Source: the human T2T-CHM13v2.0 reference genome, Homo sapiens
Length of the DNA stretch: 64,000 nucleotides
Assembly (NCBI RefSeq): GCF_009914755.1
Contig: NC_060926.1
Reading direction: 5' to 3' (one strand)
A model generated the notes under the pieces. It was not told where the DNA came from. It made no database searches and saw nothing but the letters and a program-made list of their open reading frames with translations. A program made the position numbers and the translations under genes. Below, in pieces: positions 32,361 to 33,998 of this stretch (positions within the stretch are counted from its first letter, which is position 1; every line of letters begins with the position of its first letter).

Positions 32361-33998
32361 AGCCCAGGGACGGCTGGTGGCTTGCAGCAGGTCACACGGC
32401 TACTCAGGCGTAGAGCCTGGCCTGTCTGAAGCTCAAGGCCCAGCACCCGTTCCTTTCCTTACACATAGAGTTTCACTAGGCACGCACACGCTGACTCTGG
32501 ATTGATGAAGAAACAGTTTGGGAATTTTTAACAGCATCGTTCACATTTTTAATGCCTGCCTCCTGCCTGGCACTGTGCTCAGCACTTTCATGTATCTTCT
32601 TTAATTGTCACATCTGTGAGGTGGGACAGATGACCTCAGCTCTGTAAACTCAGCCATTGCTGAGCCTGCAGTGTGAGTGTGAGGCCACATGTCAGAACCC
32701 CGGAAGACACAAGCCCCACTCTCCTGCCTTCAACACAGCCCCCCACACCGCCGCTGTGGCTGGAATTGGAGCAGGTCGTTAGCTCCTGCCTGAGGAAGCC
32801 CAAATAAAGGACTGCAGAACAACTGTAGTGCAAAGCTGAGACTCATTGCCCTCCTAGGCGTTTCATGAGCAGGTCCTGAGTTCTCTGTGTCCCGGCGTGG
32901 AGTGCAGGAGGCGTGGAAAGGGAGTAGTGCGTGTGTGAGTTAGTATACAGAAGAAGTGTGTGGCAGGCTCTACCACACGTTTTTAAAATATGTAAACTCC
33001 TAAACTTCTTGTCAGAGAAGCGCTTGGCATGCACACAAAATCATTTAGCTAATTCTTGAGAAACATATTGTTTAATTGTCTGTCTCCCTTGCTAGATCAT
33101 ACCACTAATGAGTGCTCGTTCACTAACCTCCCCGCCAGCCTTGCAGTCTCTGTCAGGCAGGAGGTACTTAAAGCATGTTTATTGACTGGCTGCAGAAATG
33201 AGGACATCTACCGTATTCAAAGATAGTGCCCGTTACATTGAGAAAAGACAGAGTGAGCATCCACTTTTAGCTTCTTAAAAGGTTTAAACATTCTGATCTT
33301 ATTTTCCCATTCATTTGCCTAATGGCTGTCCTTTCTGTATTGCACAAGGGCAAAGATAAACACAAGAGTCTGTACGAATCAGCCAGTGTGTCAGTACCAG
33401 CCAGCCTTTCCATGTTGAAGCCGTAACGTTAAGTGATGTGAAAGTATACTGTGCATTGCCACACGGGCCTGGAACATGTTGTGTTCACCCAGTTCATTGA
33501 TTTTTTCATATTGATAAATTAAAATTATGAACATATAAAGCCAGTTATTTTAGAGTCATATGCAAATCTTACAGATACAAATAAATATGTCCAACACATA
33601 GCATAAAATTTCCTTATTGATTTTAAATTGACAGAAATCTTAAGATAATCTTGCTAAAAAGGAAACCAGTCATATAGATTGAGAGATGTGCGGAGCTTTC
33701 CAATAAAAAGCCTCTTCCCGATGTTCTATCGGTTGTTGAATTGTAATGTTTTTATGATTTGATCGGCTTGAACTGTACCTCACGCTTGGCTCTCTTATTG
33801 CCTAATTACACGTGCAGCGTTGACAAATGGCATGCCCCTCCGTGCCGTCAGCACACTGACGTTGTCACCATTACTAACGGCTGGCTGGCGCTGCTTCCAG
33901 CAAGGTGAGCAGCTGTGGCCAGTGGCTATGCGTTTGGGTCATGGATTCCACCATGCCTTGCATGTGTGTTTGGTCACATGTTCTGCCGTGTCTTGCAG

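What the first reader, a model, noticed from the sequence alone, without database searches (positions are those of the whole stretch)
33872..33998. Candidate 4-nt poison microexon (CAAG, 33901-33904) just upstream of TRAPPC12 exon 4
Seen: a perfect branch point TACTAAC (33872-78) with no AG before ...GCTGCTTCCAG (33900), then CAAG, then the strong donor AAG|GTGAGC (33905). This leaves a 94-nt intron to the exon 4 acceptor. A UGC lies 9 nt upstream of the exon start, and TGCATG sits at 33959-64. Known: UGC near a weak polypyrimidine tract is the SRRM4/SRRM3 neural-microexon signature, downstream UGCAUG is an RBFOX enhancer, and ACUAAC is also the QKI site that competes with SF1. Inclusion shifts the frame ([21 protein letters not shown]...) to a TGA at 36696-98 in exon 5, upstream of further junctions. 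Inference: a tissue-regulated NMD switch controlling TRAPPC12 dosage. Short-read aligners would easily miss a 4-nt exon. Alternatives are a zero-length recursive AG|GT site or an alternative acceptor adding 98 nt.
Basis: partly seen in the sequence, partly recalled or inferred. Interest (0 to 1): 0.8.

Follow-up and report, generated by a model that had tools for sequence, protein, structure and literature searches.

The report
Annotated 87-nt poison exon, not microexon

Summary
The donor AAG|GTGAGC at 33905 is, however, the 3' end of a RefSeq-annotated alternative exon, 33818-33904 (hub table). That exon has its own acceptor, GTGCAG|CG. Read in frame from exon 3 it gives Arg then TGA at 33821-23. 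The "branch point" TACTAAC lies inside this 87-nt exon.

The 4-nt exon needs AG 33900 to serve as a second acceptor, and only motifs support that:
- TACTAAC occurs 4 times in the window against 5.0 expected.
- The composite motif occurs 124 times genome-wide against 119 for a reversed control.
- 9 of 42 strong GT sites in the window have an equally acceptor-like AG 3-27 nt upstream.
- The candidate lacks the distal U-rich tract and distal branch points that a proven 4-nt exon (MPC1) requires.

No paper links TRAPPC12 to a microexon. Its known TDP-43 cryptic exon is in intron 7.

RNA-seq and conservation could not be tested with the tools held. Verdict: a known PTC-bearing cassette exon. The 4-nt variant is possible (about 5%) but unsupported.

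The parts
33818..33904 (+). RefSeq-annotated 87-nt alternative cassette exon of TRAPPC12, in intron 3 of NM_016030.6
   Evidence: The hub gene table lists it under 'exons of other transcripts 33818-33904'. It is flanked by AG at 33816-17 and GT at 33905-06. It is single-copy in the assembly.
33821..33823 (+). In-frame TGA created when the 87-nt exon follows exon 3 (..KQLIR*)
   Evidence: Translation. The stop lies 81 nt before the exon's 3' end.
33872..33878 (+).
   Evidence: It is the only + strand copy in the window. The window total is 4 against 5.0 expected.
33892..33894 (+). TGC 9 nt upstream of 33901
   Evidence: TGC frequency is 0.0174 per nt in the window.
33899..33900 (+). Candidate internal acceptor AG (CAG), the first AG after TACTAAC and 23 nt from A33877
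   Evidence: pyrimidine fraction 0.58, T fraction 0.26, AG-free zone 47 nt. Use is not shown.
33901..33904 (+).
   Evidence: AGCAAGGT occurs once in intron 3.
33905..33998 (+). 94-nt intron from donor GTGAGC to the exon 4 acceptor. It holds TGCATG at 33959-64.
   Evidence: Hub table (exon 33818-33904 followed by 33999-...)..
33876..33928 (+). Predicted hairpin that pairs 33890-98 (the tract before AG 33900) with 33904-13 (the donor). Its loop is AGCAA.
   Evidence: -27.8 kcal/mol, z -2.28, 4 of 200 shuffles fold as well. This is a prediction only.
33999..34112 (+). TRAPPC12 exon 4 (phase 0, [11 protein letters not shown]...)
   Evidence: Hub table and the translation.
36696..36698 (+). TGA reached in exon 5 if 4 nt (or the 94-nt intron) are added

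Best explanation
The strong donor at 33905 belongs to an already annotated 87-nt alternative cassette exon of TRAPPC12 (33818-33904), which lies 94 nt upstream of exon 4. The exon is defined by the acceptor GTGCAG|CG at 33817 and the donor AAG|GTGAGC. That acceptor follows a 105-nt AG-free stretch holding CTCTCTTATTGCCT and several YTNAY branch candidates. When the exon is included after exon 3, the reading frame gives one arginine and then TGA. The stop lies 81 nt before the exon's end and many junctions before the last exon. By the 50-55 nt rule (recalled) such a transcript is a candidate for nonsense-mediated decay, or is otherwise non-productive. The sequence, the annotation and the stop are shown. 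Decay and any regulation are inferred. A predicted hairpin pairing the donor with the tract just upstream may help keep inclusion low (inference).
For: The hub annotation lists exon 33818-33904 in other TRAPPC12 transcripts, and its borders are canonical AG and GT. The donor ranks 23rd of 3605 + strand GT sites by U1 pairing energy. Translation gives R then TGA at 33821-23. Acceptor 33817 has an AG-free zone of 105 nt, pyrimidine fraction 0.58 and YTNAY at -36, -21 and -13. The region is single-copy and has no Rfam match (0 matches at E<=1 over 33000-34600). The hairpin is at -27.8 kcal/mol with z -2.28. The features invoked for the 4-nt exon occur at chance level.
Against: The table does not say which of the 15 transcripts carries the exon, nor whether it is a curated or a predicted model, and predicted models can be wrong. 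On my crude measures the annotated acceptor is no better than the internal one: both have pyrimidine fraction 0.58. The internal AG also has a perfect TACTAAC 23 nt upstream, which the annotated acceptor lacks. No expression, NMD-inhibition or conservation data could be consulted. No paper found here describes this exon.
Confidence: 0.85

Rival explanations
1. AG 33900 is used with branch point A33877, so that only CAAG is spliced between exons 3 and 4. This gives a 4-nt frame-shifting microexon that ends in TGA 36696-98 and acts as a tissue-regulated NMD switch through SRRM4, RBFOX or QKI.
For: All signals are present: a perfect TACTAAC 23 nt before the first downstream AG, CAG, and a proven strong donor 4 nt later. 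TGC sits at -9 and TGCATG at +55 from the donor. AGCAAGGT is unique in the 19,987-nt intron. Four-nt exons do exist in human genes, for example MPC1 and TNNI1 (PMC9929638, sections read). The immediate -21..-3 pyrimidine fraction of the MPC1 exon (0.53) is no better than here (0.58).
Against: The donor is already explained by the annotated 87-nt exon. The motif combination is at chance level genome-wide, 124 against 119 for the control. In the window, 9 of 42 strong GT sites have an equally acceptor-like AG 3-27 nt upstream. PMC9929638 found 4- and 5-bp exons annotated in only eight human genes, and the coding ones it tested showed no skipped transcripts and had conserved flanks. The MPC1 exon needs a distal pyrimidine tract (22 of 25 at -67..-43) and branch points at -68 and -64/-63. 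The authors suggest this relieves crowding. Here -67..-43 has 16 of 25 pyrimidines, the best window has 17 of 25, and the proposed branch point is only 28 nt from the donor. The tract before AG 33900 is 26% T with G interruptions and is predicted to pair with the donor. [quoted passage not shown] TRAPPC12 plus 'microexon' gave 0 papers.
Confidence: 0.05
2. AG 33900 is used as an alternative acceptor but the 94-nt intron stays in, giving a 212-nt exon 33901-34112 (+98 nt).
For: The acceptor signals are the same as above. The translation gives a frameshift and a TAG at 36668 in exon 5. PMC9929638 cites work that exon junction complexes suppress re-splicing close to a fresh junction (discussion). 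That would favour retention (inference).
Against: No annotated exon starts at 33901 (hub table). The donor at 33905 is strong and is used in annotated transcripts. No data were available.
Confidence: 0.03
3. Zero-length recursive site. AG 33903-04 is joined to exon 3, which rebuilds ATC|GTGAGC, and the last 94 nt are then removed. This leaves no trace in the mRNA.
For: AAG|GTGAGC is an AG|GT junction. The MPC1 island still splices in two steps at 0 bp in minigenes. The rebuilt donor would have the same exonic ATC as the natural exon 3 donor ATC|GTAAGT.
Against: A CAG lies 4 nt upstream and would be met first after the branch point. AAG is a poorer acceptor triplet than CAG (recalled). The site is 94 nt from the end of a 20-kb intron, so a two-step path brings no obvious gain. 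The tract is T-poor.
Confidence: 0.02
4. The exon is the TDP-43-repressed cryptic exon reported for TRAPPC12.
For: TRAPPC12 is listed among genes with TDP-43 cryptic exons (PMC13343711, passages; PMC12143990, passages). A short UG-rich run, GCATGTGTGTTTGG, lies in the 94-nt intron.
Against: Two papers place that cryptic exon in intron 7 (bioRxiv 10.1101/2021.12.08.471595, passage; PMC12289307 primer table). The published cryptic-exon primer has 0 matches in the window at up to 2 mismatches.
Confidence: 0.01

Closest known systems
PTC-introducing ('poison') cassette exons coupled to nonsense-mediated decay
   Same: It is an annotated alternative exon with canonical AG and GT borders. It places an in-frame stop (TGA 33821-23) more than 55 nt upstream of downstream junctions.
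   Different: No evidence was available here of regulation, of conservation or of stabilisation when NMD is blocked. It may be only low-level unproductive splicing.
MPC1 4-bp constitutive microexon 'exon island' (PMC9929638)
   Same: The hypothetical exon has the same length (4 nt, not a multiple of 3). AG and GT flank it, and the proximal pyrimidine fraction is similar (0.58 against 0.53).
   Different: MPC1 has a 22 of 25 pyrimidine, T-rich tract at -67..-43, branch points at -68 and -64/-63, and an AG-free zone of 75 nt. It is constitutive and conserved. The TRAPPC12 site has 16 of 25 pyrimidines there, a proposed branch point at -24 and an AG-free zone of 47 nt. It would break the frame rather than keep it.
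SRRM4-dependent neural microexons (3-27 nt)
   Same: A TGC lies close upstream of the candidate 3' splice site, and a GCATG lies downstream.
   Different: Such exons are most often frame-preserving, and their 5' splice sites are described as non-canonical (PMC13174390 abstract and introduction). This one shifts the frame and has a strong donor. The motifs are at chance frequency.
TRAPPC12 TDP-43 cryptic exon
   Same: It is in the same gene and is also an out-of-frame exon with a premature stop (PMC12143990).
   Different: It lies in intron 7, outside this window.

Membership tests
Poison cassette exon (AS-NMD) | Alternative internal exon with canonical splice sites, supported by a transcript model | tested here: met
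   The hub table lists exon 33818-33904. AG is at 33816-17 and GT at 33905-06.
Poison cassette exon (AS-NMD) | In-frame stop more than 50-55 nt upstream of a downstream exon junction (rule recalled) | tested here: met
   TGA at 33821-23 lies 81 nt before the exon end, and exons 4-12 follow (hub table).
Poison cassette exon (AS-NMD) | Isoform rises when NMD is inhibited, with regulated inclusion | not testable with these tools
   No RNA-seq was held. The literature searches found no description of this exon.
SRRM4/eMIC neural microexon | Exon of 3-27 nt actually included in mRNA, enriched in neural tissue | not testable with these tools
   No expression data. TRAPPC12 plus 'microexon' gave 0 papers. 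The MicroExonator supplements returned no hits even for the two control gene names Apbb1 and Unc13b, so that look-up was uninformative.
SRRM4/eMIC neural microexon | UGC element just upstream of the 3' splice site (feature recalled) | tested here: met
   TGC is at -9. I estimate about a 30% chance of one within 20 nt, from the counts.
SRRM4/eMIC neural microexon | Usually frame-preserving and highly conserved | tested here: not met
   4 nt shifts the frame. Conservation could not be tested.
Constitutive 4-5 nt microexon (MPC1 type) | Distal pyrimidine-rich tract (22 of 25 at -67..-43) required for inclusion | tested here: not met
   16 of 25 at -67..-43, and the best 25-nt window has 17 of 25. 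The MPC1 locus L003 reproduces 22 of 25 (requirement).
Constitutive 4-5 nt microexon (MPC1 type) | Distant branch points (-68 and -64/-63) | tested here: inconclusive
   The only proposed branch point is at -24. Real branch points are unknown without lariat data.
Recursive (zero-length) splice site | Pyrimidine tract plus AG directly followed by a GT that rebuilds a 5' splice site | tested here: inconclusive
   AAG|GTGAGC is present, but a CAG lies 4 nt upstream and the tract is 21-26% T.
TDP-43-repressed TRAPPC12 cryptic exon | Location in intron 7 and a match to the published primer | tested here: not met
   Intron 7 according to the passages. The primer has 0 matches in the window.

The most novel reading that the evidence does not exclude
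AG 33900, driven by the perfect TACTAAC branch site inside the annotated 87-nt exon, is used as a second acceptor in some tissue. A 4-nt CAAG exon is then spliced in. This would be a second, aligner-invisible poison isoform of TRAPPC12. It would add a further human gene to the eight in which PMC9929638 found annotated 4-5 nt exons. To my knowledge no alternative exon of this size acting as a frame-shifting off-switch has been described; I ran no search on that point.
Probability: 0.05. Interest if true: 0.55.

Novelty: already known. Interest (0 to 1): 0.15.

Why it matters
As it stands this is an ordinary, already annotated non-productive alternative exon, and its main value is as a caution. 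A strong donor with an AG a few bases upstream is common: 38 of 42 strong GT sites in this window have an AG 3-27 nt upstream, and 9 of 42 have one as acceptor-like as this. Such a pair should not be read as a microexon without junction reads. If the 4-nt form were real it would be a rare example of a sub-5-nt alternative exon used to switch a gene off. It would also matter for interpreting TRAPPC12 dosage in TRAPPC12-related encephalopathy. No evidence available here points that way.

Tried and rejected
- TDP-43 cryptic exon: rejected. It lies in intron 7, and the published primer is absent from the window.
- Structured RNA or snoRNA upstream of exon 4: 0 Rfam matches at E<=1 over 33000-34600 on both strands.
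- Repeat-derived exon: 33780-34000 matches only itself in the assembly at E<=0.001.
- Larger fold of 33790-34010: z -1.51, not notable. Only the local hairpin reaches z -2.28.
- MicroExonator supplements (mouse): 0 hits for Trappc12. The two control gene names Apbb1 and Unc13b, and Trappc9 and the stem Trappc, also gave 0 hits, so the tables seem to carry no gene names and the look-up says nothing.
- Literature: TRAPPC12+microexon gave 0 papers, and TRAPPC12+'poison exon' gave 1, a TDP-43 review. TRAPPC12+'cryptic exon' gave 8, of which 6 were listed and all concern TDP-43. TRAPPC12+'nonsense-mediated' gave 12, of which 10 were listed, and none of those titles or abstract openings concerns this exon. 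TRAPPC12+'intron 3' gave 3, none relevant by listing. The mixed search listed no paper holding TRAPPC12 among its 10 rows and does not bear on the question.
- Earlier findings of this scan were not open to the session.
- MaxEntScan, SpliceAI, phyloP, VastDB and GTEx or recount junctions are not among the tools. My splice-site measures (U1 duplex energy, pyrimidine fraction, AG-free zone, YTNAY) are crude stand-ins. In one search the thresholds were set at the candidate's own values, which favours the candidate.

Full report
**1. The observation**

I read 33700-34200, the end of exon 3 and exon 5, and checked each claimed feature by script. All of them are there:
- TACTAAC at 33872-78.
- GGCTGGCTGGCGCTGCTTCCAG running to 33900, with no AG before its final AG.
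- CAAG at 33901-04.
- AAG|GTGAGC with its G+1 at 33905.
- TGC at 33892-94.
- TGCATG at 33959-64.

Exon 3 ends in phase 0 (..KQLI) and exon 4 starts [11 protein letters not shown]. Adding CAAG gives ..[24 protein letters not shown].. and a first stop TGA at 36696-98. That stop lies 83 nt before the exon 5/6 junction.

**2.

The hub's RefSeq table lists an exon of other TRAPPC12 transcripts at 33818-33904. Its 5' end follows GTGCAG at 33812-17.

The donor and the 94-nt intron are thus known, and the exon they belong to is 87 nt long. Read in frame after exon 3 it gives R and then TGA at 33821-23. That stop is 81 nt before the exon's end, so by the 50-55 nt rule (recalled) the isoform is an NMD candidate. 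The TACTAAC, the TGC and the CAG all lie inside this exon, and CAAG is its last four bases.

The table also lists 33999-34090. This piece ends without a GT, so it is probably a transcript end. The table does not say which of the 15 transcripts holds the 87-nt exon, nor whether that transcript is curated or predicted.

**3. Strength of the sites**

No MaxEntScan or SpliceAI is held, so I used crude measures.

Donor. The U1 duplex energy of the 33905 donor is -9.6 kcal/mol, and 23 of 3605 + strand GT sites score as low or lower. The selected transcript's donors range from -6.5 to -11.4, and the two alternative first exons' donors score -5.9 and -11.6.

Acceptors:

| Measure | Annotated acceptor 33817 | Internal AG 33900 |
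|---|---|---|
| Pyrimidine fraction, -21..-3 | 0.58 | 0.58 |
| T fraction | 0.37 | 0.26 |
| AG-free zone | 105 nt | 47 nt |
| Branch candidates | YTNAY at -36, -21, -13 | CTAAC of the perfect TACTAAC at -24 |

On these measures the internal AG is not clearly worse. I report this as evidence against dismissing it outright.

**4. Is the arrangement more than chance?**

- TACTAAC occurs 4 times in the window on both strands, against 5.0 +/- 2.1 in shuffles.
- TACTAAC-N14-30-CAG-N4-GTRAG occurs 124 times in the assembly (66 forward, 58 reverse). The reversed-pattern control occurs 119 times. There is no excess.
- The window holds 42 GT sites on both strands that pair with U1 at least as well as this donor. 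Of these, 38 have an AG that would make a 3-27 nt exon.
- Of the same 42, 9 have an AG with a pyrimidine fraction, AG-free zone and YTNAY as good as the candidate's. The thresholds were set at the candidate's own values.
- From the counts, my arithmetic gives about 30% for a TGC within 20 nt and about 2% for a TGCATG within the 94-nt intron (about 9% for GCATG).
- The only unusual point is that the single + strand TACTAAC falls 28 nt before a real donor. That is a post hoc coincidence.

**5. Comparison with a proven 4-nt exon**

PMC9929638 (abstract and sections 7, 8, 9 and 12 read) makes these points:
- It counts annotated human 4- and 5-bp exons in only eight genes.
- In the five coding non-3n exons of 4-7 bp that it tested, it detected no skipped transcripts, and their flanks are conserved.
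- The MPC1 TACG exon needs 67 nt of upstream intron with a pyrimidine tract of 22 of 25 at -67..-43.
- That exon uses branch points at -68 and -64/-63. The authors suggest this distance relieves crowding between the 3' and 5' splice sites.

I located that exon in the assembly (L003) and reproduced the 22 of 25 count. At the TRAPPC12 site the same interval has 16 of 25 pyrimidines, the best 25-nt window has 17 of 25, and the proposed branch point is only 28 nt from the donor.

Microexons are also most often frame-preserving (PMC13174390 introduction). So 4-nt exons are possible, but this site lacks the element shown to make one work, and it would be of the rare frame-breaking kind.

**6. Structure**

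The stretch 33876-33928 folds into a hairpin of -27.8 kcal/mol (z -2.28; 4 of 200 shuffles fold as well).
- GCUGCUUCC (33890-98) pairs with GG-UGAGCAGC (33904-13).
- The AG and CAA sit in the loop.
- If it forms, it would mask both the donor and the tract before AG 33900.
- This resembles donor-masking stems known elsewhere (recalled) and could keep the poison exon's inclusion low. That is inference.
- The wider fold is unremarkable (z -1.51).

**7. Other readings**

- TDP-43 cryptic exon. TRAPPC12 does have one, but two papers place it in intron 7. Its primer is absent from the window.
- No Rfam family matches 33000-34600.
- The region is single-copy in the assembly.
- The +98 reading (alternative acceptor with the intron retained) gives TAG at 36668. 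The +94 reading gives the same TGA at 36696. I found no support for either.
- A zero-length recursive use of AAG|GT is disfavoured by the CAG 4 nt upstream and by the site lying only 94 nt from the intron's end.

**8. Literature**

No paper in the library pairs TRAPPC12 with 'microexon'. Searches with 'poison exon', 'cryptic exon', 'nonsense-mediated' and 'intron 3' returned only TDP-43 papers, disease reviews or unrelated papers, judged from listings and from the passages I read. Supplementary tables of splicing atlases were not searchable for this gene, so an entry there could exist unseen.

**9. Verdict**

What is really there is a known, annotated 87-nt alternative exon that carries a stop codon. 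The 4-nt exon remains a formally possible minor alternative, which I put at about 5%. Testing it needs junction reads, lariats and conservation data, none of which are held here.

I rate the site as already known and of low interest.

Noticed in passing
window 33551-33900: CpG observed/expected is 0.86-0.89 at only 37-42% G+C. This is the 98.5-99th percentile of 300-nt windows in the window. Most of the other top windows lie in or next to the GC-rich stretches at 1-800 and 60500-60900. It could mean sequence constraint or germline hypomethylation around and upstream of the 87-nt exon.
   Followed up: partly
window 33876-33928: A predicted hairpin (-27.8 kcal/mol, z -2.28) pairs the donor of the 87-nt exon with the tract just upstream of it. 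It may be a donor-masking stem.
   Followed up: partly
window 33711-33815: There is a 105-nt AG-free zone before the annotated acceptor 33817, with CTCTCTT and CCTCTTCCC runs. Long AG-free zones and CU-rich runs are typical of regulated exons, for example PTB-repressed ones (recalled). This was not tested.
   Followed up: no
window 1775-1897, 1940-2133 and 33999-34090: The two upstream alternative exons have no AG before them, so they are probably alternative first exons. The piece 33999-34090 ends without a GT, so it is probably a transcript 3' end inside exon 4.
   Followed up: no
window 14009-14017: The exon 3 donor ATC|GTAAGT has a weak exonic half. Its U1 duplex energy is -6.5 kcal/mol, ranking 190th of 3605 GT sites. 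It is the weakest donor of the selected transcript in this window.
   Followed up: no
window 6510, 20514, 30248 (+ strand): Three strong GT sites share the same CAG-17 nt-GT arrangement and lie in stretches masked as repeats. They are repeat-borne pseudo-microexon configurations that add to the chance background.
   Followed up: no
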